Shown here: one piece after another, positions 25,243 through 52,690 of the stretch
Position numbering within the stretch: position 1 is the stretch's first letter
Layout of the letters: the number at the start of each line of letters is the position of its first letter
NCBI RefSeq assembly: GCF_964194155.1
Contig: NC_135895.1
Span: 53,134,001-53,198,000 of the forward strand
Origin: Cetorhinus maximus
Lineage: Eukaryota
Length of the DNA stretch: 64,000 nt
Direction: 5' to 3'
The notes under the pieces: model-generated
Databases searched by the model: none
Told to the model about the DNA's origin: nothing
What the model saw: only the letters and a program-made list of their open reading frames with translations
Position numbers and translations under genes: made by a program

Positions 25243-25350
25243 AAATAGAGAGACCTTGATTGCTTCAAAATTTGACAATTGTGAGAAAGATAAAGTTTCC
25301 TGCTGCCAACCAACCTACGACTTAATCAGTACGGATGTCGTTCTGCCACA

Positions 25351-27600
25351 ATGCCCATAAACAGCACAGGTATTTTTACAAATCCATATGCAATTGAGGT
25401 TCTACAAAGCAAGAAAAAGGAACTTGCAGCAGGAATTATCAACACTGATCATCTTCTGGCCTGGTTGGTTGAGAATCGTATCATTTCACCAGATAAGAGA
25501 ATTGCTGTGTTGAATTACAAGACACGGGAGGAAAGGAACTCGAGAGTTCTGGATATGTTGGTTTCTTGTGGCGAGAGAGCCTGTAGACTGTTCTTCTATC
25601 CTTGCCTCAAGTATGTGGAACCAGCTCTGTATGATTACATCAGAAACTATGTCAGTAATGTGTCTGGCAGCTTTGGAAATGCCAAAAGACAGCTAGTGGG
25701 ATATCTTTTGGAAAGAGATAAGGATGAAATCCCCAGGAACAGCCAAAAAAAGGCAGAGGAATTCATGCAGAACATAATACCTAAAAAGAATCCACATCAG
25801 GTGCTAAAAAGAGCTGCTAGACCTCAACCTGTCCAGGTTGAAATGACTGAGCTCTACCAGGCTGCAGCATTTGGAGATCTTTCCGGTCTTGATAGAGCTT
25901 TTGGAGACAGTGATGTAAATGGCACAAATGCTTCTAATGAAACCCTGTTGCATGTCGCTGCTGCTCATGGGCATGTTGCAATTATTGAATACTTATTAAA
26001 TAAAGGAGCAAAGATAGAGGTGAGGGATAACAAAGGACAATCACCTCTCCACAGGGCTGCAGTGGAAGGACATTTAGGCGCAGCTAAAAAGCTTTTCCAA
26101 GCTGGAGCACACATCTATGCTTTGGATAAAGAATCCAAAAGTCCATTACACTTAGCTGCAGAGAACAGTCACTTCTCCATGGTGAAGCTGATGTTGAAAG
26201 AAGAAGGCAACAACCGTAAAAGGAAGAAATCTTTTTTGCACATGGCTGCACTCAGAGATGAAAGTAAATTAGCGCAAATCATTGTCAAATATGGAGCTGC
26301 AGTTGACACTAAGGATGAGAAGAACAGGACCCCACTGTTTCATGCTATTTCCCAAGGACATTTCAATACTGTGAAAGTACTGCTGGAGGCTGGAGCCAAG
26401 GTTGATGTTGATTTGATTCACGCAGCATTTGACAGTAATGACCAATTCCTGATAAAGCTGATCTTGGAGCATGGCAGTGAAATTAGCTCTATAGTCTTGG
26501 CCAATGCACTCTTTAAAGCAGTTCAGAAAAACCTATCCGGAACTGTGGGCATTATCATTGAACAAGGCATCAATATCAACACCAGAAATGGAATGCAATA
26601 CACCCCTTTACTGTTAGCAGCAGAACTTGGCCATGCTGAATCTGTCAAAATCCTGATAAATAAAGGTGCATGTTTACATGAAAGGACACCGAATATGGAC
26701 AGTGCATTACACCTTGCAGTCCAAACTGGTTCTCTTTCTGTTGCAAGGCTGTTGATTGACCAGGGGATGGATGCAAACATTATTGGCTCTAACAACCAAA
26801 CACCCTTGCACGTTGCATCCTTTCATAACCAACGACCAATGATAGAAACTTTGATAGCAGGAGGTTCAAAGGTCAATGCTGTCACTAAGGAAGCAGTTAC
26901 ACCTTTACATATCGCTTCACAAAGAGGTAACAGAGATACAGCAGAGTGTCTCATCCAGGACAAAGCAGATGTGAATGCCAAAGACAGATATATGAAAACA
27001 CCCTTGCACATGGCTGCTGTAGTTGGAGATGCCTCTATTGCAGATCTACTTCTGTCAAACCAGGCAGATCCTAATGCAGTAAATATACAGAAGAAAACCC
27101 CACTCCATTTGGCTGCAAACGAAGGCCATTTGGATTTTGTATCTTTGATGTTAACCAGAAGGGCCAAGTTTGCTGCAAAGGATATGGATGGGAATACTCC
27201 AATGCACTATGCAGCCAGCAATAGCCACAACATTGTTGTCAAAGCTCTTTTATTGGCTGGAAAAAATAAAAACATAGATGTTAAGAATGTTGGGCGGAAA
27301 ACACCATTACATCTAGCAGCAGAGCATAGTGGTGAGGACCTGGTAGAATTGCTGTTGATCAGTGGAGCTGCCATTAATGCCTTAGATAATGCAAAAGACA
27401 CACCTCTGCATTGTGCTTGCAAATCGGGAAACTTTAACACTGCCCAAAAACTAATCAACTGGTCTAAAGGTGAAAAACCCAAGTTGCAATCAACAAATAG
27501 TTTAAGAAAGAACCCTCTTCAAGTTGCAGAAAGTGGAGATACAGATAACCACCGTCAAATAGCAACATTATTGAAAAAGAAAATGTTGTTAACTAGATAA
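25351..27600 (+). CDS. caiap: CARD- and ankyrin-repeat-containing inflammasome adaptor protein (single coding exon, 749 aa)
   Basis: Intact ORF with a good Kozak context (GCCACAATG). N-terminal CARD-like region (FTNPYAIEVL...RVLDMLVSCGERACRLFFYPCL) followed by about 16-18 TPLH-type ankyrin motifs and no kinase domain. Architecture and length match Caiap of non-placental vertebrates. Confidence 0.93.
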   Translation: MPINSTGIFTNPYAIEVLQSKKKELAAGIINTDHLLAWLVENRIISPDKRIAVLNYKTREERNSRVLDMLVSCGERACRLFFYPCLKYVEPALYDYIRNYVSNVSGSFGNAKRQLVGYLLERDKDEIPRNSQKKAEEFMQNIIPKKNPHQVLKRAARPQPVQVEMTELYQAAAFGDLSGLDRAFGDSDVNGTNASNETLLHVAAAHGHVAIIEYLLNKGAKIEVRDNKGQSPLHRAAVEGHLGAAKKLFQAGAHIYALDKESKSPLHLAAENSHFSMVKLMLKEEGNNRKRKKSFLHMAALRDESKLAQIIVKYGAAVDTKDEKNRTPLFHAISQGHFNTVKVLLEAGAKVDVDLIHAAFDSNDQFLIKLILEHGSEISSIVLANALFKAVQKNLSGTVGIIIEQGININTRNGMQYTPLLLAAELGHAESVKILINKGACLHERTPNMDSALHLAVQTGSLSVARLLIDQGMDANIIGSNNQTPLHVASFHNQRPMIETLIAGGSKVNAVTKEAVTPLHIASQRGNRDTAECLIQDKADVNAKDRYMKTPLHMAAVVGDASIADLLLSNQADPNAVNIQKKTPLHLAANEGHLDFVSLMLTRRAKFAAKDMDGNTPMHYAASNSHNIVVKALLLAGKNKNIDVKNVGRKTPLHLAAEHSGEDLVELLLISGAAINALDNAKDTPLHCACKSGNFNTAQKLINWSKGEKPKLQSTNSLRKNPLQVAESGDTDNHRQIATLLKKKMLLTR

Positions 27601-31312: not shown

Positions 31313-34133
31313 GGCAGTGTTCCAATGTGTCTGCTGCCCTTGTCCTAGATAGTAGTGGTCATGGGTTTGGAAGGTGCTGTCTAAGGGGGCTTGGTGAGTT
31401 CCTGCAGTGCATCTTGTAGATGGTACACACTGCTGCCATTGTGTGTCGGTGGCGGAGGGAGTGAATGTCTGGGTGCCAATCAACTGGGCTACTTTGCCCT
31501 GCTTGGTGTCAAGCTTCTTGAGTGTTGTTAGAGTTGCACTCATCCAGACAAGTGAAGAGAATTCCATCACACTCCTGACTTGTGCCTTGTAGATGGCAGA
31601 CAGGCTTTGGGGAGTCAGGAGGTGAGTTACTCACCACAGGATTCCCAGCCTCTGACCTGCTCTTTCAGCCACAGTATTTATATAGCTAGTCCAGTTCAGT
31701 TTCTAGTCAATGGTAACCCCCAGGATGTTGTAGTGGGGGATTCAGCGAAGGTAATGCCATTGAATGTCAAGGGACGGTGGTTAGATTATCTCTTGTTGGA
31801 GATGGTCATTGCCTGGCACTTGTGTAGCACGAATGTTACTTGCCACTTATAAGTCCAAGTCAGGATATTGTCCAGATCTTGCTGCACTTGGACATGGACT
31901 GCTTCAGTATCTGAGGAGCCACAAATGGTGCTGAATATTGTGCAATCATCAGCAAACATCCCCACTTCTGACCTTATGATGGAAGGTCATTGGTGAAGTA
32001 GCTGAAGATGGGTGGGCCTAGGACACTACTCTGAGGAACTCCTACATCAATGTCCTGGAACTGAGATGATTGACCTCCATCAACTACAACCATCTTCCTT
32101 TGTGCTGGGTATGACAGCAATTAGTGGAGAGTTTTTTCTCTGATTCCCATTGACCCCAGTTTTGCTAGGGCTCCTTGATGCCACCCTTGGTCAAATGCTG
32201 CCTTGATGTCAAGGGAAGTCACTCTCACCTCATCTCTAGCATTCAGCTTTTTTGTCCATGTTTGACCCAAAGCTTTAATGAGGTCAGGAGCTGAGTGGCC
32301 CTAGCGAACCCAAACTGAGCGTCAGTGAGCAGGTTATTGCTAAACAAATGCTGCTTGATAGCACTGTTGATGACCCCTTCTATCACTTTACTGATGACCA
32401 AGAGTAGACTGATGGGGCGGTAATTGGCTGGGTTAGATTTGTCCTTTTTGTGGATGGGACAACCTGGGCAATTTTCCACATTGCCGGGTAGATGCCAGTA
32501 TTGTATCTGCACTCGAACAGCTTGCTTAGGAGCACGGCAAGTTCTGGAGCATAAGTCTTCAGCACCATTGCCGAATATTGTCATGGCCCATAGCCTTTGC
32601 AGAACCCAGAACCTTCAGCCACTTCTTGATATCATGCGGAGTGAATTGAACTGACTGAAGACTGACATCTGTGATGCTGTAAAGCTCCGGAGGAGGCCAA
32701 GATGGATCATCCACTCAGCACTTCTGGCTGAGGATTGTTGCAAATGCCTTTTGCAAAGATGGGCTCCCCCATCTTTGAGGATGGGGATATTTATGGAGCC
32801 TCTTCCTCCAGTGAGTTGTTTAATTGTCCACCACCATACATGACTAGATATGGCAGGACTGTAGAGCTTAGATCTGATCCGTTGGTTATGGAACCGCTTA
32901 GCTCTATCACTTGCTGCTTTTGCTGTTTGGCACGCAAGTAGTCCCGTGTTATAGCTTCACCAGGTTGACACACATCATTTTTAGATATGCCTTATGCTGC
33001 TCATGGCATACCCTCCTGCACTCTTCATTGAAACAGGGTTGATCCCTGGCTTGGTGGTAATGGTAGAGTGAGGGATATTCCGGGCCATGAGGTTACAGAT
33101 TGTGGTTGAGTACAGTTCTGCTACTGATGGCCCACAGTGCCTCATGGATGCCCAGTTTTGAGCTGCTAGATCTGTTCAAAATCTTTCTCATTTAGCATGG
33201 TTGTAGTGCCACACAACATGATGGAGGGTATCCTCAATATGAATATGGTACTTTGTCTCCACAAGGAATATGCGATGGTCACTCCTACCAGCATTGTCAT
33301 GGACAGATGTAAATGCAGCTTGCAGGTTGGTGAGGATGAGGTAAGTATGCTTTTCCCTCTTTTGGTAGCAGCTATGTCCTCTAGGACAGCCAGCTCGGAC
33401 TGTACTCATGGTGATGGATATTGAAGTCCCCACCCAGAGTACATTCTGCATCTTTGCCAACTTCAATGCTTCCTTCAAATGGTGTTCAAAATGGAGGGAC
33501 ACTGATTCAACAGCTGAGTTGGAGGGGCGGAGGTTTCCTTGCCCATGTTTGAACTGGTGCCATGAAACTTCATGGGGTCCAGAGCCATGTTGATCATTCC
33601 TTCTGACTGTATACCACTGTGCTGTCATCTCTACTGTGGCTAACCTTCCGGTGGGACAGGACATACCCAGGGATGGTGATGGTGGTTTCTGGGATATTGT
33701 CTGTAGTGTATGATTCGGTGAGTATGACTATGGCAGGCTGTTGCTTGACTAGTTTATGAGACAGCTCTCCCAATTTTGGCACAAGCCCCAGATATTAGTA
33801 AGGAGGACTGAGTTTGCCAGTCATTTCTGATGCCTATGTCAATGCTGGGTAGTCTGTTCCATTCCTTTTAGTCTTTTTAGCGGTTTGATACAACTGGGTG
33901 GCCTGCTAGCAGATCTAGCAACTCAAGATCCTGTGGGCCTGGAGTCACATGTAGGCTAGACCAAGGATGGCAGATGAGATTTTTTACAATGGTTTCATGG
34001 TCATCACCAGACTTTTAATTCCAAATTTTTATTGAATTCAGACTGGTGGATTCAAACCTGGGTCCCCAGAGTATTAGCTTGGGTCTCTGGATTACTAGTC
34101 CAGTGATAGTACCACTATGCCACCGCTTCCCCC
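31313..34133 (-). mobile_element. CR1/L2-group (HER1-like) LINE with decayed endonuclease and RT and a SINE-like tRNA head at its 5' end
   Basis: EN start LVKQQPAIVILTESY...IPGYVLSHR (33594-33782). RT NPANYRPISLLLVISKVIEGVIN...DAQFGF (32243-32584). 33931-34133 is homologous to SINE 30300-30558. Confidence 0.85.
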
Positions 34134-34439: not shown

Positions 34440-34817
34440 TCATTCCGGAAGGGTTAATCCTACAGCAGTATTAATACTTAAGAGCTGTTTTAGAGTTGTC
34501 AGGTCTGTAACTTAAAGCTCTTGGACAGTTTTTGCCACGTTTCTAGGTTGATATATGCACTTTAAGATGAGAAAACTCAAAACTAACGCTAAAAGCAGCA
34601 AATAATTCAAACACAGCATTCACTCCATCCTGTGCCCTAACCCCGTCACGTGACAGAACCTTTTCAGGTGGCACGTGGGACGGTGCCCAACCTTTCTCGA
34701 GGATGCCGGGAACGCGGAGGACTGGCTGACAGAAGAGGATTCTGGGAAGGCGGAGGACTCGGTGAAAGAGCCTGTGGAGGACTGGTTTGGTGTGATGGTG
34801 GTATCGGCGGTGAGCTG
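34440..34817 (+). promoter_or_regulatory. CpG-rich promoter and 5' UTR of the ISY1-like gene
   Basis: GTCACGTGAC (34645-34654), a second CACGTG (34672-34677) and TTCCGGAA (about 34444), directly upstream of the ATG at 34818. Confidence 0.6.
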
Positions 34818-34884
34818 ATGGCCCGCAATGAAGAAAAGCAGCTGGGGAATCTGAACCGATTGTGGCTGCAGAGGGAGAAGGAGG
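34818..34884 (+). CDS. ISY1-like uncharacterised protein, exon 1 (MARNEEKQLGNLNRLWLQREKE)
   Basis: ATG at 34818, donor G|GTAACA, phase 1. N-terminus resembles ISY1 MARNAEKAM. Confidence 0.85.
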
Positions 34885-36609
34885 GTAACATAAGCTACTC
34901 CGGTTCATCTATGTTATTGTCTGCTGATGATTATGGATGTCTGTGTAATGTGGCTGAATGTTGAGAAGCTGGGGGACCCTGAGAGCAGCTCTCCGTGAAG
35001 TGGAGTATTGAGCTGTGTGGTCTGGAATAAATCTTTCCCAACAACTATGTAACTCTGAGTACATTCACAGTTCTTGACTTTTTTTTTCCAGGAGTGGGAC
35101 ATGAACCCACTACCTTCTGACTCAAAGGCGAGGGTGCTATGAACTGAGCCACAGTTTACACAGCGCAGGCACCTTTGGGTTTTATTTGCCCAGTTGTGCT
35201 GGGGTTCAGTTCTCTAATGCTAGAACTCCCCCACCTCCTCTTAGTAACTCGCCTCTAGGGTTACTTTGCGAGTCTGGCCAGAAAGAAAGATATTGAGGTC
35301 AATTTGATTCCGGGGGGAGGGCGGCATTATATTTGAGCCAAAACTCGTTAAGTGTTCTCAGTGTTGTCATTAACTGTATAATCTGGTTTGATTCACATGA
35401 CCTGCCACCCCTTTTAGGGTGCATATATTTTAGGGATTCCGTGACAGCTCTGCAAATTGACTGCATTCAAACGCTGTGGCTCAACATTTGCCTTATCAAA
35501 TATTTGATAAGAAATTCCCCTTTTTTAAAAGTATGTACATTTTATAGGACACTAGCTGTCTGCAAGGGTCTATGCCATTTTTTTGTGATTACTGCTGTAT
35601 GTCCTCGTCTCTCTGTTTCACAACAAACAATGAACAGCAAGGATGTAAGGGAATTAAGTTCATGATTTCAGGCTCCCAGCTCTGTAAGTGACAAGAATGT
35701 AGAAGTCCTGATCTGAATAGACACCACAATGCCCATGTTTTTAAAAATATAACAAAGAGCTATTTGATTTGTGCACATATAATAGAATCTAAACGCAAAT
35801 GAATGAGTGTCAAAGGTTGACACAGCATAGATTCAGGTGACTTTATTTACTGATTAGATATTGGTTTTATTTTGGATGTTCAGGAATATGAAATAACAAG
35901 AGTTGAAGTAATATAAGGGTAAAGCTCTTGATTGGTTTATGGATGTTACTTGAGTCTTGAAGTTAAATTTCTGTCTTTTTCTTTTTCTTTATATTCTTAA
36001 ATAAAACATTACTTTCAAAAGAAAAATTTCATTCTGGTCATCAATGTGCAGATCATCTCCAATGACAAGCAAAATAACAGCTGATGTTACAAGTCCTACA
36101 AAAACATGATTGTAAAGTTGGAAATTTATTTTGTATTCTATTTTTCTATAGAAGCGGTAACTGTAAACCATTCTAATGTTACATAATATCATCTAAGTTC
36201 CTTTCCCCAGCTCAAATTACAGTTATCAGCTCTAGATACTTGAAATTACTGTGTATTATTGAAATTGGAAGGCATGGTGGCATTTTAGTGTTTGCTGTGC
36301 TTACCCCTGTGCTCTTTGGTTTCAAATGCCCCCATGGCCTTACCTCTCTATCTCTGTAATCTCCTTCAGCCCTACAACCCTCAGACCCTTGTGCTCCCCT
36401 GATTCTGGCCTTTTACACATCCTTGATATTCTTTATTCCACTATTGACAGCTACGTTTTCAGCTACCTAGGCTCTGAGCTCTGAAATTCGCTCATTTAAA
36501 TCACTCTACCCCCGTCTCCTGCTTTAAGATTATATTAATATTAGTGTAGTATATTAAAATGTGTTAAAGGCTTTTGTCAGTTTTTAATTATTTTGTTCTT
36601 GTTCAACAG

Positions 36610-36650
36610 AAGGCCGTCTGAGAGAGATACATCAAAACAGACCCAAACTG
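36610..36650 (+). CDS. ISY1-like protein, exon 2 (EGRLREIHQNRPKL)
   Basis: Pyrimidine tract with AACAG acceptor, GTGAGT donor, phase 1 to 0. Aligns with ISY1 EEGKVKERRPFL. Confidence 0.85.
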
Positions 36651-37385
36651 GTGAGTAACCAAACCATTTTTTTCTGGAGTCAATGGAGCAACAACATACC
36701 TGGCTGAGAAAGTAAACCAAGATTGCTATGGTCCTGCTCATGCAACAACTTTCTACAATTGCTGAATAATGTTGCCATCTCATACTTAACAACGGGACTC
36801 AAATACTGGTTGCTTTTTCAGCTTTTACACTTGAGTTTCTAAATGTAAACCTTGTTCATTTTAATTCATATCTGAGCAACTTAGAGTGGGGAAGAAGGAT
36901 TTTGAAATTTGCTTTCTGCCACAGTGCCACACCTTTACCCCATGTTTTTAAATGTGATCTTTAATCTCTGCGGAAAGCAGACTCCTGTTGGTAGTATATC
37001 TGGCAGTGCCACAGTAATAAATTTAAGAGGGTCTAGAATGATCTGTATAGCTTAGGTACAGAGAGGTGTTTGCACATGCACCTCTTAGTACACCACACCC
37101 AAACTTTAGAATTAATGTACATATTTTTAATTTCCGTACCAATAATCATTTGTTTCAGTTCCCTTATTCCATGAAAGATTCAAACTACATTTGTTTCCAA
37201 GGGCTGAGATGCATGTTTTTTTCCAGCTCTCCTACTTCAAACAAATACAGTGTAAAGAACAAGAAGAAACTTGCATTGCTATGACACTTTTCACAACCTT
37301 TGTATGTTTCGAAGTACTTCACAGTCAATAAATTATTTCTGAAATGTATTCACTGTTTGCAATGGTTCTTTCTCAATTTGTACTC

Positions 37386-37465
37386 GAGTATTGCTGAAAA
37401 AGAGAAATTTTTGTGGAAGCTTTTCGTCTTGCATTCATCAGCACAATTCGCAAGAAAATACCAAT
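37386..37465 (-). mobile_element. Family-B hammerhead-motif element in intron 2
   Basis: Reverse complement of 37411-37446 reads TTGTG-CTGATGA-ATGCAAGAC-GAAA-AGCTT-C-CACAA. Confidence 0.75.
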
Positions 37466-37944
37466 AAATAAATAAACACTTGGCATGTCAAGTTAGCACT
37501 TGCAGAAAATCTTCAGAAATGGCTGGTAGTGGTGTTGCAGAGTTGACTGTAGAGGATTCCTGTTTAGGGGCACGGATCTGCTGCAGAATTCACCTGTATC
37601 TGCCGCCAAAACAGCCAAAGTGATGATTTTTTTTTTTGATTTGATTAGCAGTTTGTACAATGTTGCTGTCAGTGTTAAAGTTGCAGTGCATTTACTAATA
37701 TTTATGAACTTGGTAACAAGCTTTGTAGGAAAGTGTAATTAATTTAATCTAAGTGCTTCAAGTTGTTTGAATTCATACCTTTTAATTTACTGAGAGGTAC
37801 ATTTTCAATGCTAATAAAATATGATAGACTTTTTTTCCTAAAATCAAGCAATGTAATGCATGAAGAAATGGGAACTGCAGGTTATCTTCTATTCAGTGAC
37901 CACTTTACATTTTGTGGTGATTTGAACTTGTATTTTCTTTGTAG

Positions 37945-38019
37945 TCCTCCTTGACTTCAGCTGTTGAAGTGAAGAAATGGATTCCAAGCATCAAGACTGA
38001 GATTGAGTATTATCTTCAG
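37945..38019 (+). CDS. ISY1-like protein, exon 3 (SSLTSAVEVKKWIPSIKTEIEYYLQ)
   Basis: TTTTCTTTGTAG acceptor, CAG|GTTAGT donor, 75 nt, phase 0. Aligns with ISY1 AEKWRRQIIGEI. Confidence 0.87.
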
Positions 38020-38854
38020 GTTAGTAATTCAGTTTATGAAAGGGACATTGGCAATGTTTCTCTTCTGGGGGGCGGGGGGTGGTGCAGTTCCCCCTGCTCA
38101 ACAACATCAACTCATTTTTTCTTGGTGAAACTTCTGAAGATATAATTTTTTACTCTTTCATGGGATGTAGGCATCACTGGCATTTGTTGCCCATCCCTAA
38201 TTGTCCTTGAGAAGGCAATGGTGAGCCAGTTCATGAATGTTTGTTTCTACCTTGCCTTGAAATAGAATTAAACTTAGGTCATTTGTGTTAACCTGCTCCT
38301 TTCGAGAAACTGGGTGAAGACTGCCAAAACCTATTTTGCATTGTAATTATCAGAGTCCACAAATGACATTTATTTCTCCAGAGCTGTATCAAGGGAGTTT
38401 CTTTGTAATGCATTTTGCTGTAAGAATACAATATATAGGCAGATTTGTGCTGTAGAACCACTTCTTGCTATGAATGGGTTGATGTTGCTCAAACTCATTC
38501 TAGGAACTTATAGCCAGCATCAAGATGAGACTTTCATCTCCGCGGCACTGAATTCAAAACAAAAAGTCTGAGATGAAAGGATTATCTACTAAATTGCAGT
38601 ACCCACTCCTTGTACAGTGCAACCACACCTTTAATAGCTCAAATGAGTCCAGTTGAAAATACATGAAGGCAATATTGATCACTAAAGATTTGGTTCAGTA
38701 AGTTATTTTTGTTTGCCAGGATTTTTTTGTTAACCAAATTGCTTTTATTAAAAATATATTTTGCAGGGTTTATTACTGATGTAACATAGGGTGTTCTCGT
38801 TTATTTTATGTACGTGTCTAAGTGGGTGGTTTAACAGGGGACCAAAATGTTGAC

Positions 38855-40092
38855 AAAATAATGCTTGAGGTTTTTGATGATATAACAGAGAGGGTTGAGG
38901 AGGGTAATGCTGTTGATGTGATGTGCTTGGACTTCCAAAAAGCAATTGATACAGTGCCACACAATAGACTTGTGAGCAAATTTAGAGCTCTTGAAATAAA
39001 AGGGACAGTAGCAACATGAATATGAAATTGGCTTAGTGACAGAAACAGAGTAGTGGTGAACAGGTTTTTTTGGACTGGAGGAGTGTTTATAGTGCAGTTT
39101 CTCGTGGGTTGGTGTGAGGACCCTGCTATATGTTAATGACCTAAACCGTGGTCTACTGAGGCACAAATTTCAAAATTTGCAGATGATATGAAACTTGGAA
39201 GCATTGTGAACTGCGAGGAGGATAATGTAGAACTTTAAAAGGACACGAACAGTTTGGTTGATTGGGTGAAAGGAGCAGATGAAATCTAATGCAGAGAAAT
39301 GTGAAGTGATTCATTTTGTTAGAAGGTGGAGTGACAATTTAGAATAAAGGTTACAAATCTAAAGGGGGTGCAGGAGCAGAAAGACATGGCTGTATATGTG
39401 CACAAATCATTGAAGATGGTAGGACAGGTTGAGACTATGGTTAATAAAATGGGACCCTAGGCTTTATCAATCGGGGCATAGAGTAAAAAAGCAAGGGAAA
39501 AAACAAGGAAATTATGTTAAACTTGTATAAAACCTGGTTCGGCCTCAACTGGAGTGTCACATTCAGTTCTGGGCATCACACTTTTGGAAGGATGTGAAGG
39601 TGTTAGTGCAAATCAGATTCACAAGAATGGTTCCAGGGATGAGAAACTCCAGTTATGTAGATAGTTTGGAGAAGTTGGGACGGTTTTCCTTGGAGAAGAG
39701 AAAGTTTAGAGGAGATTTGGTAAGGGTATTTGAAACATGAGGGGTCTAGATAGAGTTGTTAGGGAGAAACTTTCCCGTTGGTGGAAGGATCGAGAATCAG
39801 AGGGCATAGATTTAAGGTAATTGGCAAAAAAAACCATGGAGACATGAAGAAAACCTTCAGGCAGCGAGTGGTTAGGTTCTGGAATGCACTGCCTGAGAGT
39901 GTGGTGGAGGCAGGTTCAATCAAAGCATTCGAGAAGGAATTGGATTATTATCTGAATCGGAAGAATGTGCAGGGCTACAGGGAAAAGGTGGGGGAGTGGC
40001 ACTAGGTGACTTGCTTCTTCAGAGAGCCAGCACAGACATGGCAGGCCGAATGGCCTCATGTTTGCTGTAACCATTCTTCTATAATTCTATGA
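38855..40092 (+). mobile_element. CR1 LINE fragment in intron 3
   Basis: AVDVMCLDFQKAIDTVPHNRL and SRIRGHRFKV...VVRFWNALP motifs. ATTCTAT-type tail. Confidence 0.9.
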
Positions 40093-40141
40093 AATGCATT
40101 ATAGTGATACAATATGAGGAAATGTTTTCTCTGCTTTACAG

Positions 40142-40340
40142 CAATCACAGTTATCCCATTACTCAGAAAGGAAGATAAAGGAATTCCAGGATCATATTGA
40201 AGAACTTCAGAAGGAGTATAAACATTACTTGTGGAAGCTGCGTCATTTAGACCCTTCCCACAAGGACCACCCTTGGAAACCCCGTGCTTACACCCGGAAA
40301 AGACCACCTAACTCTACAACACAGACCATCAGCCAACTGG
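40142..40340 (+). CDS. ISY1-like protein, exon 4 (QSQLSHYSERKIKEFQDHIEELQKEYKHYLWKLRHLDP...PWKPRAYTRKR...SQL)
   Basis: TTTTCTCTGCTTTACAG acceptor, open 199 nt, G|GTATTC donor, phase 0 to 1. Aligns with ISY1 EFRIRDLNDEINKLLREKGHWEVRIKEL. Confidence 0.85.
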
Positions 40341-40814
40341 GTATTCAAAATTATGTCTGGGGTTAATTTGTAGCTAAGCAGCAATTGGGTCTCTAGTGTA
40401 CTGCAGCATGCAGTACAATAATGTAAATATTATCTTAATAGGGCATTCATTAAATTTAAATTTAAAATCCTCATCCTTAACTTCCAATTCTACATGGTTT
40501 TGGCCCACCCTATCTCTGAAATTTACTCTAGCCTTATCCCTTTATCACCCTTTAGACCTCCACCCTGGCCTATCATTAATCCCTTTTTTCTTGCTTGAAA
40601 CATAGTCCTCCTGACTCTGAAATCATTTGGTGTAGCTTTTAGTAACTTTCCTGAATTCCCTTAATTTAGAATTACATCCTTCTACTATCTCCTTGACTCA
40701 TGTTATAAACCTATTTAAAGCCCATCTTGGCAACTAATCTTTCATTAATCCCTCTTCATCTCTCCTCGCCTGCATCAACACAGTTTGGCATCCATTCCTT
40801 TTAATATCTAAAAC

Positions 40815-41035
40815 AAAAGCAAAATACTGTGGATGCAGGAAATCTGAAATAAAAAGCAAAAAAACCCTGGAAATACTCCTCAGGCCTGACTGCATCTGCG
40901 GAGAGAGAAACAGAGTTAATGCTTCAGATCGAGAACCTCGTCAGAAGTTCTGAAGAAAGGTCCTCGACCTGAAATGCTAACTCTGTTTCTCTCTCGGCGG
41001 ATGCTACCAGACCCGATGAACATTTCCTTGCATTA
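40815..41035. repeat. Inverted pair of family-A Penelope terminal repeats (centre 40947)
   Basis: GAGAGAGAAACAGAGTTA (40901) mirrors TAACTCTGTTTCTCTCTC (ends 40995). TCAGAA-G-TTCTGA at the centre. A hammerhead-like core lies on each strand. Confidence 0.8.
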
Positions 41036-41875
41036 CCTATTTCTGTCTTACGTTCCTTGCCCTCTAAAGTGTCATAGGGTTTTTTTTTAATGTTCAATGT
41101 ACTATTTGTTGATTAGTCTGTCATTGGGAGAAATTTTGAAGAGTTAATGTTAACAAAAATGCATAACTGGAAACACATTGACAAAGTTTTTCTTGAATAA
41201 ACCGGGTGGGAGCATGAATTCAATCATGGAAGAGCCATTTGATCTTTGGAAATACATTTTCTACCATTTGAAGGACCTCTGTCTAATCCACTGTAACTTT
41301 ATGCAAACCTCTAATTTTAGATATTCCTGCTATACTATGTGATATAATTAACTGTTATAAGACTGTCAGGCCCTATGCCAGATAGTCCCCTTCAGTTTTC
41401 CATTTAATTACATTATTTATTCAAAGACGCATTTTAAAATCATTCTTTTAATATTTTATACCTAGAAATGTTGATTTATCTCCTCACCTTTTCTACTGTC
41501 CAATTACAGTCTCCACCATTGAGCCTTAGCCCTTAATTTAGATTTCTTCAAAATAATTTTTGAAAATGATCTTTGCACATAGTCAGTTTCTATAAATTCC
41601 AGCTGGCTTTCTGTATCAAAACTTGTTACATATTTTTCTGTGAAGTGCCAGGAAAAATGATTTTGCCACAAATATGAACTAAATTCCTTGTAATGAAAAA
41701 TGTGGAATGTAGATTATTTTAATGACACTACAATGTAGTTTTATCCCCGTACTTCATTTTTTTTAAAGCTCTGTTTGCCAATTTTACCATCTGAATGTTT
41801 CCATCCAGTAATTTAGATTAATAGCCGGATGCATTAGTGTTCTCTTTTAGTAAATTAAGGTTTTGTTATTTGCAG

Positions 41876-42339
41876 CTACATTGCACAGTTTGAAACGACT
41901 ATGCATGCCACCTTCAAACAAAACTGAAGATGAAACTCATGAGCATGACTCTGATGGGAAATCTGGTGAAGTAAGGGAAAGGAGCTGCCTAAGCCTGCAG
42001 ATACCAGATGGTGTCATCTATGACTGTTCAATGGTTAATTCCAAGTTTCAAGACCAGCCCCTTACTTTTAATCCTGCTAGAGTTCCATCAAGATTTTCTA
42101 CGCACTTTACTCCAAAAAATACATCAGGAGAAGGCTCACAACATATGACCAAAATTCTTTTGTCTCAGCTACCAAACTTACAAACTTCATCTTCCTGTGG
42201 AACCAAAACAGAGTTGAACAGAGAGGAAGAAGAAATATGTGCCTTTAAGGTGAATGAAGATTCTCAGGAGTCTATTTTGCAAAATAAAAGCTGTGGAATG
42301 CTAGGATTGTCTTGCTATTCTTCAGATGAAGATACATAA
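41876..42339 (+). CDS. ISY1-like protein, last exon (ends GMLGLSCYSSDEDT*)
   Basis: TTTTGTTATTTGCAG acceptor. Phase 1 joins the open frame 41863-42339. Total CDS is 846 nt = 281 aa + stop. AATAAA at 42586-42591. Confidence 0.82.
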
Positions 42340-43049
42340 ATGACAAGTAGCAACTGATTCATATTCATAACTATTTACCATTTTGTCTTAAGTACTGTAT
42401 TTGCTAAATGTATATAGATGCTATATTTTCAAAATGTAAGTGTTCCTATATAGCTTTGTGCTATTTGTATAGAGCTTTGTATGGTTGTTGAATTTAACTT
42501 TCATACTGAGCAAGTACAGTAACAAGCGTACTTTAACACTGACTCTTCCAATTCTCATAGTTGGCGTGAATTTAAATCATTCAGAAATAAAAATGGTCTT
42601 GATTTCAAATACTTGTCAGATATAGTTTACTTTCTGTCATTAGTGTGTAATGCATGTATGAAAGCCATTGATATATAGTTCCACTGGTAAAGCACTGTTC
42701 GATACATGTTTTTACACTCTCCCTGCAACTGAACTGCTCGTACCCATGCTGATACAACAACCTCGAAGCCTAAGAAATAGCTTTCGTTATTGTACGTTGC
42801 TCATTTGGATCAGTTCACACCTTGCTTGAATGGCAAGGAGTTGAGATAGATCATATTGAATCTATCTGACAATGAAAGATTGGAATTTGGGCAAGCTCCC
42901 TTGGTAATCTGATACCTGATTCTGGCAGGTTCATCGTTCTGTTGATTCGCTAGCCAGTTCTGTTGATTGACTAGTCAGCCTGGCCAACATTCTGACCTGA
43001 ATTTTTCTTTGCAAAACAAATAAACATACAAGTACTGTCTTTCTTTCTC

Positions 43050-44465
43050 TTCAGGTACCACGTTTTATATGGATGATCATGGCTGTCCAACTTTCATGGT
43101 CTTTGATAGCAGCCAACATCTTGGTAGCATTCTCAAATCCTCTACCGGTTCTGCTTCTTAAGCTGTTGGTATATTTCCTCCTTTGTCTCCCTCTTGCTCT
43201 GCTCCCCTCAGTTTTACCAGTCGCTACCAGATACAATATTCTAGTTTCTCTTTCTGAAGCACTTGCCCAAAGAATTGTTGTTGCCTTTTGGTTCTTGTGT
43301 GCCCACTTTCCTCAAAACTTCTTCATTAGTTTTGTGTGTTGTCCAACTAATCCTTATCATGCGTCTCAGAAACCACATTGTTGCTTTTAATTTATTTTCC
43401 ATTGTTTTGTTTATATTCCAACTTTTGCATCCATATAGTAAAGTTGACCAGATGTAGCATTTTGGTAACCACATTCTACTTTCCAGAGAGATGTTATTTC
43501 TAGAGGTCTGACATTTTTTTGAACGTTTGTTTTGAAAGTATTATGCATTTCCTGACATGTTGGTCACTTTTCCCATCAGATGTTATTAGGCTACCTATAG
43601 AAGAAAATGATTCAACTTGGTTCATTTCTTTCAATTCCACTATTATTTTGCATCCAGATGTAATCCTTTTCTTTGATATTACCATGCATACTGTTTTGCT
43701 GCAGCTTAATAATCCATATATGTCACTGTTTGTTGTAATTAAGTCTAGCAGTCTTTGTAGATTTTCCTTTATATCTGCCATATTTACTGTCACCTGTATA
43801 TCTAAGATTATTTATATTCTGTCAATTTACTGAAATTCCTGGTAACCTTGATAGATGTCTTTTAATCACTTTACTCCAAAGATTGAAAAGACCTGGTGAC
43901 AGAAGACAACCTCTTTTTGTAGCTATCCATTCACTTTATTCATTGATAAAAACAAAAAGCTAAAAGCTACTGTGGATGCTGGAAATCCAAAACAAAACAA
44001 AAACAGAATTACCTGGAAAAACTCAGCAAGTCTGGCAGCATCGGCGGTTTATTCATTGTCCATTCTGACTGCTGTTTGGTCCCAGTCTAAGTTTTGAAGT
44101 CTTAACTTCGACATTGAAGGGAAAGATTTATGTAACATTTCCAACATCTGTCCCTGCCTCACTCTCTCAAATGCCTTGGTATAATCTATAAAACAGGCAT
44201 ATATCTTTTTGTACTCTCTCATTATAGTTCTTAGCACATGTTGCACTTCTTGTTCTTTTTCCTTTATATAATATAAAGGAAGGATTTCCTATCTAATTCT
44301 GCTTCTCATCATGATTTTTAGGTTTATTTGGATCTGTGTTTCTCATGAGGCTGATCGTTTTATGAAGTTCGCATTCTGTTGCATCTGGTCTTTTAGGCAG
44401 TGCAGTAAATGCTAATTTACTAACAAATTTCAGATTTAATCCAGAGTCGTACACTTTGTTACAGG
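43050..44465 (-). mobile_element. RTE-clade LINE fragment
   Basis: LPKRPDATECELHKTISLM, YACFIDYTKAFERV and CYIWSTLLYGCKSW...MWFLRRMIRISW motifs. Confidence 0.88.
43946..44047 (-). mobile_element. Truncated family-A element inserted in the RTE, 11-bp TSD
   Basis: TTTATTCATTG at 43935-43945 and 44048-44058. Interior is homologous to 52600-52690. Confidence 0.8.
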
Positions 44466-47969: not shown

Positions 47970-49555
47970 AGGAGAGAGGAGCTTGGTGAAATTACATTCA
48001 CTAGGGAAGCAGTACTGAGCAAACTGATGGGGCTGCAGGTTGACAAGTCTCTGGATCCAGGTGGGCTTCATCCTAGGGTCTTAAAAGAGGTGGCTAATGA
48101 GGTAGTAGATGCGTTGGTGTTAATTTTCCAAAATTCCCTAGATTCTGGAAAGGACCCATCAAACTGGAAAGTAGCAAATATAACCCCTCCATTCAAGAAG
48201 GGAGGGAGGTAGAAAACAGGAAGTTAGCTTGATGTCTGTCGTGGGGAAAATGTTAGAGTCTATCACTAAAGAGGTTATAGCTGGGCATTTAGGAAAACTC
48301 AAGGTAATTGGGAAGAGTCAGCATTGTTTTGTGAAAGGCAAATCATGTTTAACTAATTTATTAGAGTTCTTTGAAGGAGTAACATGTGCTGTGTGGTTAG
48401 AGAGGGAGCCTGTAGATATGCTGTACTTGGATTTCCAGAAGGCATTTGATAACGTGCCACATCAAAGGTTATTGTGGAAAATAAAAGCTCATAGGGGGTA
48501 ACACATTAGAACGGATAGAATATTGGCTGGCTGGCAGAAAAAAGCATATGCACAAATGGGTCTTTATCTGATTTGCAAGATGTGATTAGTGGAGTCCCGC
48601 AGGGATCTGTGCTGGGGTCTCAAATTTTACAATTTATAGCAATGACTTGGATGAGGGGAACGAAGGCATGGTAGCTAAATTTACAGATGAGACAAAGATA
48701 GGTAGGAAAGTATGTTGTGAAAAAGACATAAAAAGTTTGCAGACGGATATAGATAATTTGAGTGAGTGGGCAGGAATTTGGCAGATGGAGTATAATGTGT
48801 GAAGTTCACTTTGGCAGGAAGAATAAAAAAGCAGAGTATCACTTAAATGGAAAACGGCTGCAAAATTCCGAGGTGCAGAGGGATCTAGGCATGAGTCACA
48901 AAAAATTAGTATGCAGGCACAGCCTGTAATCAAGAAGACTAACGGAGTGCTCTCCTTTATTACGAGAGGAGTTGAACATAAAAGTAAGGGTGTTCTGCAT
49001 CAGTTATACAGGGCATTGGTGAGACTGCATGTCGAATACTGTGTGCATTTTTGATCTCCTTATTCAGAAAGGATGTAAATGCGTTGAAGATGGTTCAGTG
49101 GAGATTTTCTAGATTGATACCTGGAATGAGTGGGTTGTCTTATGAGGAAAAGTGGGACAGACTGGGCTTGTTTCCACTGGAGATTAGAAGAGTGAGGGTA
49201 CTTGATTGAAGTATATATTATCCTGAATGGTCTTGACAAGGTGGATGTGGAAAGGATGTTTCCTCTTGTGGGTGAGTCCAGAACGAGGGGGCACTTTTAA
49301 AATTAGGGGTCGCCCTTATAGGACAGAGATGAGGAGAATTTTTTTCTCTCACAGGGCTGTGCAACTTTGGAACTCTCTGCCTTAGAAAATTTTTAAGGCA
49401 GCGGTAGATAGATTCTTGTTAGGCAAGGGAAGCAAAGGTTATCGGGGGTAGATGGGAATGTGGAAATTGAAACACAAACAGATCAGCCATGATCTTATTG
49501 AATGGCGGAACAGGCTTGAAGGGCCAAAACCTACTTCTGCTCGTATTTCAGATGT
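47970..49555 (+). mobile_element. CR1 LINE fragment
   Basis: LHPRVLKE, WKVANITPPFKKG, KGKSCLTNLLEFFE and YLDFQKAFDNVPH motifs. Confidence 0.92.
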
Positions 49556-49879: not shown

Positions 49880-52690
49880 CTGCAAGCTCCAACAACTCAT
49901 TGATACCAACGCCCATCCAGGACCCTCCACCCCTACCCACCCCTCTGACCCCATCCCGTCTTCTAATCCTGACCCCGGCCATGTATTCACCCATACCCCC
50001 TGACCTTCCCCTCTCTGGTGCTGAACGTTCAGTACTTAGCAAAGGACTCAGTTTCATACCTTTACGCCCTCACCTCAATGAATTCCGGGCTCGGCACAAT
50101 GCAGAACTCTTCTTCCGCTGCCTTCGTTTCCGTGCTCACTTATTTGGGCAGGAGTCCTCTCCATGTTCAACGGATCTTTTAACCCGCCTCCAGTATTCTC
50201 TTTCCACCTGGACCCCTCCCTCTGGCCTCTAACCTGCTCTTGATCTTTTCATTGAGAACTGTTGGCGTGACATCGGCCCTGTCTATTTCTCTGCTCCTCT
50301 CACCCACCCTAACCTGTCTCCTTCTGAACTTGCTCCTTTTTCTCAGGTCCAACTCTGACTTTGTTATCAAATTGGCCGACAAGGATGGTGCTGTTGTTGT
50401 CTGGCGCGCTGACCTCTGGAGAGTTGGCTGAGCGTCAACTCGCAGACACTTCCTCCTACCTTTTCCTGGACCGTGAACCCACCACCGAACATCAAGCCAT
50501 TGTTTCCAGGACTGTCACTGACCTCATCTCCTCTGGTGATCTCCCAACTTCAGACAGCCCGCTTCTACCTCCTCTTCAAAATCCACAAACAGGACTGTCC
50601 CAGTAGACTGATCTTGTCAGCCTGTTCCTGCCCCACGGAACTCATTTCTTCCTATCTTGACTCCGTTCTCTCTCTCCCCTTGTCTAGTCTCTTCCCACCG
50701 ACATCTGCAATTCCTCTGATGCCCTACATCATATCAACAATTTCCAGTTCCCTGGCCTCAGCCGCTCCTTTTCACCATGGATGTTCGATCCCTCTACACC
50801 TCCATCCCCCACCAGGATGGCCTGAGGGCTCTCCGCTTCTTCTTTGAACAGAGGCCCGAACAATCCCCACCCACCACCACCCTCCTCAGTCTGGCTGAAC
50901 TTGTTCTCTCACTGAACAATTTCTCCTTAAACTCGCCTCACTTTCTCCAAATAAAAGGTGTGGCTATGGGCACCCGCATGGGCCCCAGTTATGCCTGTCT
51001 CTTTATGGGGTATGTGGAACATTCTTTGTTCCAGTCCTACTCAGGCCCCCTCCCACAACTCTTTCTCCGGTACATCGATGACTGTTTCGGTTCCGCTTCA
51101 TGCTCTCGTCTGGATCTGGAAAAATTTATCAATTTTGCTTCCAATTTCCACCCCCTCATCACTTTCACGTGCTCCATAACTGACACTTCCCTTCCTTTCC
51201 TTGACCTCTCTGTCCCAATTTCTGGTGATAGACTGTCCACCAATATTCATTACAATTCACTGACTCCTACAACTACCTTGACTACGACTCCTCACACCCT
51301 GCTTCCTGTAAGGACCCCATCCCATTCTCCTAGTTCCTTCGCCTCTGTCTCATCTGTTCAGACGATGCCACTTTCCAAAACAGTGCTTCTGACAAGCCTT
51401 CCTTCTTCCTTAACCGAGGCTTCCCACCCACGGTGGTTGACTGGAGCTTGACTGTGTCCGACCTGTCTCCCGTGCCTCTGCCCTCACACCTCCCTCTCCC
51501 TCCCAGAACCATGATAGGGTCCCCCTTGTCCTCACTTTTCACCCCACCAGCCTCCGCATTTAAAGGATCATCCTCTGCCATTTCCGCCAACTCCAGCATG
51601 ATGCCACCACCAAAACACATCTTCCCTTCACCCCCCCTGTCGGCATTCCACAGGGATCGTTCCCTCCGGGACACCCTGGTCCACTCCTCCATCATCCCCA
51701 ACACATCCCATGGCACCTTCCCATGCAATCGCAGAAGGTGCAATACCTGCCCCTTTACTTCCCCCGTCCTCACCTTCCAAGGGCCCAAACACTCCTTTCA
51801 AGTGAAGCAGCATTTCACTTGCACTTCCCTCAATTTGGTCCACTGCATTTGCTGTTCCCAATGCGGTTTCCTTTACATTGGAGAGACCAAACGCAGACTG
51901 GGTGACCGCTTTGCGGAACATCTTCGGTCTGTCCGCAAGCATGACCCAGACCCTCCTGTTGCTTGCCATTTCGAGTCACCACCCTGCTCTCATGCCCACA
52001 TGTCCGTCCTTGGCCTGCTGCAATGTTCCAGTGAAGCTCAACGCAAACTGGAGGAACAGCACCTCATCTTCCGATTAGGCACTTTACAGCCTCCCGGACT
52101 TAACATTGAGTTCAACAACTTCTGATCATGAACTCTCTCCTCCACCCTCACACCTTTTTGATCCCCTTTTTTCAAATATTTATTTTTTAATTTTTATGTA
52201 TATATTTTCATCCCTACCTATTCCTATTATTATTATTATTTTCTAAATTTATTTCCATTCATTGTTTTATCGCCACCTTTTAACCTATTTTCATCTTTTC
52301 TCCCACACTGCCCCCTCCCCCCCACCCTGCCCCACTAGGGCCATCTGTCACTTGCTCATCCTGCTTCCCACTCTTAATATCACCATTAGCACCTCCTTTA
52401 GCCAGTATCACCACCGCCAACACCCCTTTTGTTTATGACATCTTTTGCAATTTCCCCTTTGCCTCCACCTATCACTAGCCTTCTATTCAGCTTCACCTGT
52501 CCCCACCCGCCTTAAACAATATATATTTCACCACATTTTTACTTCTCTTTAGTTCTGAAGAAGAGTCATAAGGACTCAAACCGTTAACTCTGTCTTTCTC
52601 TCCACAGATGCTGTCAGACCTGCTGAGTTTTCTAGCGATTTTTGTTTTTGTTTCAGATTTCCAGCATCTGCAGTATTTTGCTTTTTTCTG
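49880..52690 (+). mobile_element. Penelope-like element (Neptune-type): RT, Cys linker and GIY-YIG endonuclease, frameshifted, with 3' terminal repeat
   Basis: MDVRSLYTSIPH, GVAMGTRMGPSYA and FLRYIDD (50777-51451). CNRRRCNTC and CSQCGFLYIGETKRRLGDRFAEH...LQPPGLN (51433-52125). Hammerhead-like motif at 52551-52589. Confidence 0.93.

What the first reader, a model, noticed from the sequence alone, without database searches (positions are those of the whole stretch)
34818..42339. Hidden five-exon gene encoding a divergent ISY1-like protein of unknown function
Seen: five exons with canonical, phase-compatible splice sites assemble into an 846-nt CDS (281 aa), with a CpG-rich promoter and a downstream AATAAA. 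Knowledge: about the first 100 aa align with the N-terminal helical domain of ISY1, an NTC factor that promotes branching (MARNxEK, EEG, RPxL, KW..I..EI, E..I.E..D.I..L..E). The conserved ISY1 YKYFGAAKDLPGV block is absent and replaced by HPWKPRAYTRKR and a low-complexity tail. Inference: an old ISY1 paralog rather than ISY1 itself, possibly a specialised or competing branching factor (for example tissue-specific or minor-spliceosome). I recall an uncharacterised zebrafish si:dkey clone gene beside caiap and mysm1 that may be the ortholog (unverified), and I know of no functional study.
Basis: partly seen in the sequence, partly recalled or inferred. Interest (0 to 1): 0.78.

Follow-up and report, generated by a model that had tools for sequence, protein, structure and literature searches.

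The report
Ancient second ISY1 splicing factor
This shark gene is a spliced, very old second copy of the splicing factor ISY1, shared with fish, amphibians, invertebrates, amoebae, one fungus and Blastocystis but not found in any reptile, bird or mammal record seen, and it likely serves as the branching clamp of the rare 'minor' spliceosome, which nobody has tested.

Summary
Five GT-AG exons give an 846-nt frame (281 aa). All four joints appear in contigs of 4 of 4 RNA-like runs from two related species.

The gene is the orthologue of the annotated but unstudied si:dkey-86e18.1, lying between JUN-CAIAP and MYSM1. Canonical ISY1 sits on another contig.

Only residues 1-98 match Pfam Isy1. The active-site N-terminus (MARNxEK) is kept; the ISY1 C-terminal half is replaced by a disordered tail with its own conserved motifs.

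New here: the family is far older than vertebrates. The shark domain is 42-49% identical to amoebozoan, Basidiobolus and Blastocystis members but 27% to its own ISY1.

All 5 named non-animal holders with published data belong to minor-intron-rich genera. The human minor Bact lacks SYF1, the tether that ISY1's missing tail binds. Best reading (0.45): a minor-spliceosome branching factor, secondarily lost in some lineages.

Against: no amniote, plant or dipteran member was seen although these keep minor splicing, gene-rich genomes co-retain many unrelated genes, and binding is untested. No paper and no earlier scan finding on it turned up.

The parts
34600..34817 (+). modestly CpG-enriched promoter / 5' UTR region
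   Evidence: CpG o/e 0.66, GC 0.56 at 34600-34799 against 0.26 window-wide; RNA-like contigs cover from about 34757
34795..34818 (+). 7-codon upstream ORF whose TGA overlaps the main ATG (TGATG)
   Evidence: read directly from the sequence; upstream ATG positions; not followed up
34818..34884 (+). exon 1, residues 1-22, holds the MARNxEK N-terminus that in ISY1 reaches into the active site
   Evidence: weak Isy1 hit of the exon alone, E 0.029; residues 1-14 are the best-conserved block, mean top-residue share 0.80 in 67 sequences
36610..36650 (+). exon 2, residues 23-36 (RPxL); NAGNAG acceptor, proximal CAG used
37945..38019 (+). exon 3, residues 37-61, first helix of the hairpin (WIPxI)
40142..40340 (+). 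exon 4, residues 62-127, second helix, then the family-specific LDP..PW..R.Y + basic patch
   Evidence: single copy in the genome
41876..42339 (+). exon 5 coding part, residues 128-281 + stop: disordered tail with QDxPLxF and a C-terminal LGLxxY-S/D/E motif
42586..42591 (+). candidate polyadenylation signal AATAAA
   Evidence: contigs of runs X2 and X3 stop at 42624, weak hint only

Best explanation
The gene encodes an ancient paralog of ISY1 that keeps ISY1's N-terminal domain, has lost ISY1's C-terminal half, and likely acts as the branching clamp of the minor (U12-type) spliceosome. Shown: an intact, spliced, single-copy gene; a conserved MARNxEK N-terminus and helical hairpin; no ISY1 C-terminal blocks; a disordered tail with its own motifs; and a family spanning animals, Amoebozoa, Basidiobolus, Amoebidium and Blastocystis. 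Inferred steps: (1) the free N-terminus would insert beside the docked branch helix as in ISY1; (2) without ISY1's C-terminal helices it would not be tethered by SYF1 and U2A'/Lea1, and would instead be recruited through QDxPLxF and the terminal LxxY-S/D/E motif to a partner not yet known; (3) that suits the minor spliceosome, whose Bact lacks SYF1 and U2/U6 helix II; (4) amniotes, and apparently plants and dipterans, would have lost it, with ISY1 or nothing covering the step.
For: Kept with ISY1: A2, R3, N4, E6, K7, L12, R14, R33, P34, L36, W48 among 19 shared conserved columns. The family profile hits only ISY1 chains in the PDB at E<0.001 (3 rows; 7 of 8 rows up to E 1). The model has helices 42-63 and 70-97; the top 10 Foldseek rows are spliceosome chains or the Isy1 NMR domain and the top 4 VIA rows likewise, Z 8.8-9.0, rmsd 1.7-2.4. 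ISY1's N-terminus projects into the active site (PMC9505925); its C-terminal helices bind Syf1 and Lea1 (bioRxiv 2020.09.22.306647). ISY1 C-terminal motifs: 0 of 190; QxxPLxF 164 of 190; terminal LxxY-acidic 170 of 190. Human minor Bact lacks PRPF19, SPF27 and SYF1 (PMC11039992) and helix II (PMC9762485). Named non-animal holders Physarum, Planoprotostelium, Pelomyxa, Basidiobolus and Blastocystis are 5 of 5 genera singled out as minor-intron-rich in PMC10639083. By contrast 2 of 80 non-animal, non-land-plant species reach 50 minor introns in the part of Table S4 of PMC11347168 that I read. Trichoplax, a holder genus, has 121 minor introns and all four snRNAs. Precedent: RBM41, TXNL4B and WDR25 are minor-type paralogs, and RBM41 is often lost and dispensable in cells.
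Against: No amniote is among the 116 named of 120 listed rows (of 262 hits), and none of the unnamed sequences checked looks like one. No land plant, dipteran, Rhizophagus or Neocallimastix is named in any hit list, although all keep minor introns. The 5 genera are only three independent lineages, all intron-rich. Six further named non-animal holders (Cavostelium, Nematostelium, Arcella, Rhizamoeba, Balamuthia, Amoebidium) have no status that I could find, and the Blastocystis holder is another isolate than the one scored. Such profiles are unspecific: RBM41's co-occurrence table is full of unrelated genes such as TMEM214, XRCC4 and SNAP47, and neither ISY1 nor this gene is in it. The fold match is a plain helical hairpin with Foldseek E>=0.043 and Z within the range common for helical bundles. 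Eighteen conserved columns differ from ISY1, so the partners of the hairpin may have changed.
Confidence: 0.45

Rival explanations
1. It is an alternative, SYF1-independent branching factor of the major spliceosome that replaces ISY1 on a subset of U2-type introns (weak or unusual branch points), or in some tissues or conditions.
For: It has the same conserved clamp. Isy1 affects proofreading of the branch site. Its apparent loss in amniotes and plants, while minor splicing stays, is easier to explain this way. All holders are intron-rich.
Against: It does not explain why the few non-animal holders with data are all minor-intron-rich genera. In the major spliceosome the SYF1 tether is present, so losing the tail has no obvious purpose.
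Confidence: 0.25
2. It is an untethered decoy that occupies ISY1's site and dampens or proofreads branching rather than promoting it.
For: The docking domain is kept and the tether is lost; such an anatomy can act as a competitor (inference).
Against: The catalytic-side N-terminus is the most conserved block (0.80), as expected of a working clamp. There is no direct evidence of inhibition.
Confidence: 0.1
3. It left the catalytic spliceosome long ago and uses the Isy1 hairpin in another nuclear RNP process (snRNP recycling, lariat turnover, RNA surveillance). Its range reflects gene-rich genomes in general.
For: Identity to ISY1 is only 27%, with 18 family-specific conserved columns and a separate set of tail motifs. 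Many unrelated genes share minor-like profiles.
Against: The extreme N-terminus that touches the intron in ISY1 is nearly invariant from sharks to amoebae. No other Pfam family matches more than 2 of 67 members.
Confidence: 0.17
4. It is the ordinary ISY1 of this species, a recent duplicate or a pseudogene.
For: Two shark records are named 'ISY1 homolog'.
Against: Canonical ISY1 is on C6. No intron position is shared. The frame is intact and spliced. The shark protein is closer to amoebozoan members than to its own ISY1.
Confidence: 0.03

Closest known systems
ISY1 / Isy1 (Ntc30), Pfam PF06246; PDB 6ff7_w, 5yzg_y, 7b9v_G, 1x4t
   Same: MARNxEK N-terminus, RPxL, two-helix hairpin to about residue 98; similar overall length.
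   Different: 27% identity over the domain; no YKYFGAAKDLPGV or IDAxYYG blocks (0 of 190); no predicted C-terminal helices of the kind that bind Syf1/Lea1; own tail motifs; 4 introns, none shared with the ISY1 positions mapped; patchy rather than near-universal range.
si:dkey-86e18.1 (uncharacterised gene of fish, sharks, coelacanth, lungfish; LOC genes of amphibians)
   Same: It is the orthologue: 97% over exon 4 to the Carcharodon record and 79-89% to other cartilaginous fishes, many of them so named; 65-77% over residues 1-120 to bony fish and amphibians.
   Different: Nothing in sequence. What is missing in print is any function, or recognition that it is a deep eukaryotic paralog.
Minor-spliceosome paralogs of major components: RBM41/RNPC3, TXNL4B, SCNM1, candidate WDR25
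   Same: An old duplicate of a major-spliceosome protein with a patchy range in minor-intron-bearing lineages; RBM41 is often lost and dispensable in cells.
   Different: All of these exist in humans, whereas this gene was not found in any amniote record. It would act at branching, a stage for which the papers read name no minor-specific factor.

Membership tests
Pfam Isy1 (PF06246) | score above the gathering threshold | tested here: met
   P0001 (276/281 identical to the window product) 47.6 bits against 25; 61 of 67 family members match at E<=0.01
ISY1 orthologues | N-terminal MARNxEK and helical hairpin | tested here: met
ISY1 orthologues | YKYFGAAKDLPGV block and the downstream IDAxYYG block | tested here: not met
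   0 of 190 for either motif; Pfam match ends at profile position 98 of 253; both blocks present in the C6 gene
ISY1 orthologues | C-terminal helices that bind SYF1 and U2A'/Lea1 | tested here: inconclusive
   no sequence match beyond residue 98, and the tail is modelled as disordered apart from one short helix at 214-224; binding itself not tested
ISY1 orthologues | being the genome's ISY1 (best match, shared gene structure) | tested here: not met
   canonical ISY1 on C6; introns after codons 8.67, 26, 48, 62.33, 100 there against 22.33, 36, 61, 127.33 here
si:dkey-86e18.1 orthogroup | closest hits carry this name; single copy | tested here: met
   synteny shown only in this genome, not in zebrafish
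minor-spliceosome-specific proteins | paralog of a major-spliceosome component | tested here: met
minor-spliceosome-specific proteins | found only in lineages that keep U12-type introns and snRNAs | tested here: inconclusive
   5 of 5 named non-animal genera with data, plus Trichoplax; 6 named non-animal holders without data; most hits unnamed
minor-spliceosome-specific proteins | present across minor-spliceosome lineages, including humans and land plants | tested here: inconclusive
   no amniote or plant among named hits; 142 of 262 and 112 of 262 hits were not listed, and no amniote genome could be searched
minor-spliceosome-specific proteins | physical association with U12/U6atac complexes and a U12-type splicing defect on loss | not testable with these tools
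   needs RIP, AP-MS and a knock-out

The most novel reading that the evidence does not exclude
ISY1 duplicated at or near the last eukaryotic common ancestor into a major copy and a minor-spliceosome copy. This gene is the missed minor-specific branching factor, overlooked because amniotes lost it and all inventories start from human and yeast proteins. Fish and frogs would then branch U12-type introns with a part that humans lack.
Probability: 0.4. Interest if true: 0.88.

Novelty: new variant of a known kind. Interest (0 to 1): 0.68.

Why it matters
How the minor spliceosome carries out branching without SYF1 and U2/U6 helix II is open, and a 2025 review expects more minor-specific parts (PMC11874965, passage). 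A dedicated ISY1 paralog would fill that gap. It would add a pair to the pre-LECA major/minor duplications (the LECA inventory of PMC9887622 lists ISY1 with no close paralog). It would also mean that zebrafish and Xenopus models of minor-spliceosome disease use a part that amniotes lack. Even if the minor link fails, a very old second copy of a catalytic-core splicing factor, present in two standard model animals and never studied, is directly testable by knock-out.

Tried and rejected
- First exon coordinates were one base off for exons 3-5 and were corrected. First ISY1 exon coordinates were off and were corrected; identities are not used.
- No listed run is on record as RNA; the laid runs are RNA by guess and are contigs, so no statement on level or tissue is made.
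- Single exons against Pfam gave only a weak Isy1 hit for exon 1 and chance coiled-coil hits. The own-genome Isy1 scan found only the C6 gene, not this one.
- Complex prediction of residues 1-116 of P0001 with a CDC5L-type Myb region from a metagenome contig gave no verdict (0.08, mark 0.34, alignments not used). It is no evidence either way.
- The metagenome scan with P0191 found no relative, so intron sharing with protists was not tested.
- The ESM Atlas gave only this family's own clusters.
- Rfam found nothing in the window. U12-type signals are absent from the gene's own four introns.
- The 74 weak own-genome matches to exon 4 cover only its low-complexity second half and were rejected as noise.
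- Supplements of PMC11039992 and PMC8280824 (12 of 13 files) do not list ISY1 or this gene.
- The amniote-loss screen PMC10416458 does not name it in the main text; its supplementary lists were not seen and may hold the frog orthologue.
- Galej et al. 2016 was not held, so residue-level ISY1-RNA contacts were not checked against the structure paper.
- The tree (37 rows) has one canonical ISY1 on a very long branch and no protist ISY1, so it dates the duplication only indirectly. Physarum, Balamuthia and Pelomyxa rows were left out as partial.
- Earlier scan findings: none on this family.
Full report
1. The gene is real. Exons 34818-34884, 36610-36650, 37945-38019, 40142-40340 and 41876-42339 join in phase to 846 nt, 281 aa plus stop, with GT-AG U2-type introns. 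Four of 17 listed runs were laid on the region. All four joints were found at these positions in 4 of 4 runs (contigs; RNA by guess; two related organisms, three studies). The product is 276/281 identical to P0001 from Carcharodon, which served as a stand-in for tools that need one unbroken protein. Exon 4 has one strong match in the genome, itself. CpG enrichment upstream is modest.

2. What it is. The nearest named relatives are si:dkey-86e18.1 or uncharacterised genes. Of 120 listed rows (262 hits) 14 are chondrichthyan, 1 coelacanth, 1 lungfish, 31 amphibian, 69 ray-finned fish and 4 unnamed. The neighbourhood reads JUN, CAIAP (window 25294-27597), this gene, then a SWIRM exon taken as MYSM1, all on the + strand (123 of the longer ORFs were scanned). 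Pfam Isy1 matches residues 1-98 only. Canonical ISY1 lies on C6; its six mapped exons read intact through YKYFGAAKDLPGV. The two genes share no intron position over the stretch mapped.

3. How old it is. A profile search of 1.84 billion representatives gave 262 hits, 150 listed. The genome's own ISY1 would score E 11 on that profile, so these hits are this family, not ISY1. I looked up 30 of them by name and ran one further search. Over residues 1-100 the shark protein is 42-49% identical to five amoebozoan rows, Basidiobolus and Blastocystis, 34% to Amoebidium and 27% to its own ISY1. The 37-row tree roughly follows species groups, with animals together (93/87, not starred) and ISY1 outside on a very long branch. 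The duplication therefore predates the split of Amoebozoa and opisthokonts (inference). If the Blastocystis gene is vertical, it lies near LECA. I did not show that these protists also keep a canonical ISY1. No amniote, land plant, dipteran, nematode, dikaryan fungus or dictyostelid is named in any list; the two unnamed tetrapod-like representatives are 81% and 92% identical to frogs. Loss in amniotes is likely, not proven.

4. Anatomy. Residues 1-14 are the best-conserved block (0.80), 33-99 next (0.60), the tail least (0.20). AlphaFold2 gives helices 3-22, 42-63 and 70-97 and a disordered tail (mean pLDDT 63; 85-95 in the ten-residue blocks from 41 to 100). Structure searches rank ISY1 chains first but with weak scores typical of helical hairpins; the sequence profile is the firmer link. 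Nineteen conserved columns are shared with ISY1 and 18 are family-specific, including WIP, Y68, K72, F76, Y87, LDP and Y111. Among 190 full-length-like proteins the two ISY1 C-terminal motifs occur 0 times, QxxPLxF 164 times, TP[LVI][LA] 80 times and a terminal LxxY-S/D/E run 170 times. That similar terminal motifs occur in other nuclear RNA proteins such as USB1, PRCC and RBM5 is recalled, not tested.

5. How it most likely works. In yeast the Isy1 N-domain clamps the branch helix, while two C-terminal helices tether it to Syf1 and bridge to Lea1 (bioRxiv 2020.09.22.306647, 12 passages). The N-terminus contacts the intron backbone (PMC9505925, passages). Human ISY1 arrives with SYF1 in the intron-binding complex (PMC10208982, passages). 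The paralog keeps the clamp and swaps the tether. The human minor Bact lacks SYF1, PRPF19 and SPF27 (PMC11039992, passages) and U2/U6 helix II (PMC9762485, passages), so a clamp with another tether is what that machine would need (inference). The range points the same way. Physarum, Planoprotostelium (265 minor introns), Pelomyxa (90), Basidiobolus (249) and Blastocystis (253, another isolate) are all singled out in PMC10639083 (section 24 read whole). Only 2 of 80 non-animal, non-land-plant species reach 50 in the part of Table S4 of PMC11347168 that I read (names C to V). Trichoplax has 121 and all four snRNAs. Against this stand the apparent absence from amniotes, plants, flies and Rhizophagus, only three independent lineages, six named holders without data, and the many unrelated genes with minor-like profiles (part 2 of 21). 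RBM41 shows that a minor-specific paralog can be lost often, but it is kept in humans. I put the minor reading at 0.45, an alternative major factor at 0.25, a role outside the catalytic spliceosome at 0.17, a decoy at 0.10 and plain ISY1 at 0.03.

6. What is in print. 'dkey-86e18' occurs in 0 papers of the library. 'isy1' with 'paralog' gave 39 papers, 20 listed, none on this gene by title or abstract. 'isy1' with 'minor spliceosome' gave 10, none on it by listing. Searches added nothing on it. The LECA inventory (PMC9887622, passages and the supplementary rows for ISY1) lists no close paralog. PMC11874965 and PMC5662874 were seen as passages, PMC8280824 only through a search of 12 of 13 supplements, and PMC10416458 as passages, its gene lists unseen. 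Subscription journals are largely outside the library.

7. Verdict. A real, annotated but unstudied gene; a member of the Isy1 Pfam family but not an ISY1 orthologue; a new variant of a known kind. The deep range and its overlap with minor-intron-rich lineages are the new and testable points. Function is untested. Interest 0.68.

Noticed in passing
window 25294-27597 +: Long exon encoding CARD plus many ankyrin repeats: CAIAP, an inflammasome adaptor reported from cartilaginous fish to marsupials and absent in placental mammals (PMC5662874 passages). Two adjacent genes here seem to have been lost stepwise on the way to placentals.
   Followed up: partly
L015:2584-3576 + (G000:C18 about 53.117 Mb) and L019:7379-8218 + (about 53.225 Mb): Intronless JUN upstream and a SWIRM-domain exon, taken as MYSM1, downstream.
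   Followed up: partly
window 34795-34818 +: A 7-codon upstream ORF whose stop overlaps the main start (TGATG); it could tune translation of a protein that needs its exact N-terminus.
   Followed up: no
window 38800-40050 and 40800-41000 (introns 3 and 4), 43050-43400: Decayed LINE-like and other high-copy repeat fragments: an RT-like reading at 38897 and very high contig depth. Further RT fragments lie at 5871-6230, 32246-32614, 48184-48498, 50720-51448 and 54872-55417.
   Followed up: no
window 34855-34998 and 35153-35379: One low-depth contig of run X4 (record 22) joins these two intron-1 stretches directly, and positions 34945 and 35192-35380 are covered in all four runs; this is either a deletion in the related species or retained-intron RNA.
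   Followed up: no
P0072, P0131, P0288, P0040, P0236: Database models fuse or mislabel this gene with neighbours: TNF-family domain in two teleosts, PIM2 kinase in Polypterus, 'OMA1' in Xenopus, 'dynein intermediate chain' in Balamuthia; two shark records call it 'ISY1 homolog'.
   Followed up: no
P0224, P0229, P0243, P0249, P0259: Unnamed protist-type members share an extra NP[NS]G-x(2-3)-LY motif after the basic patch; three of them group with Blastocystis in the tree. Their taxon would decide whether the family reaches beyond Amorphea more than once.
   Followed up: partly
G000:C1:1719231-1719440 -: A second Myb_Cef (CDC5L-type) match apart from the CDC5L gene on C5, with one stop inside; perhaps a processed pseudogene.
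   Followed up: no
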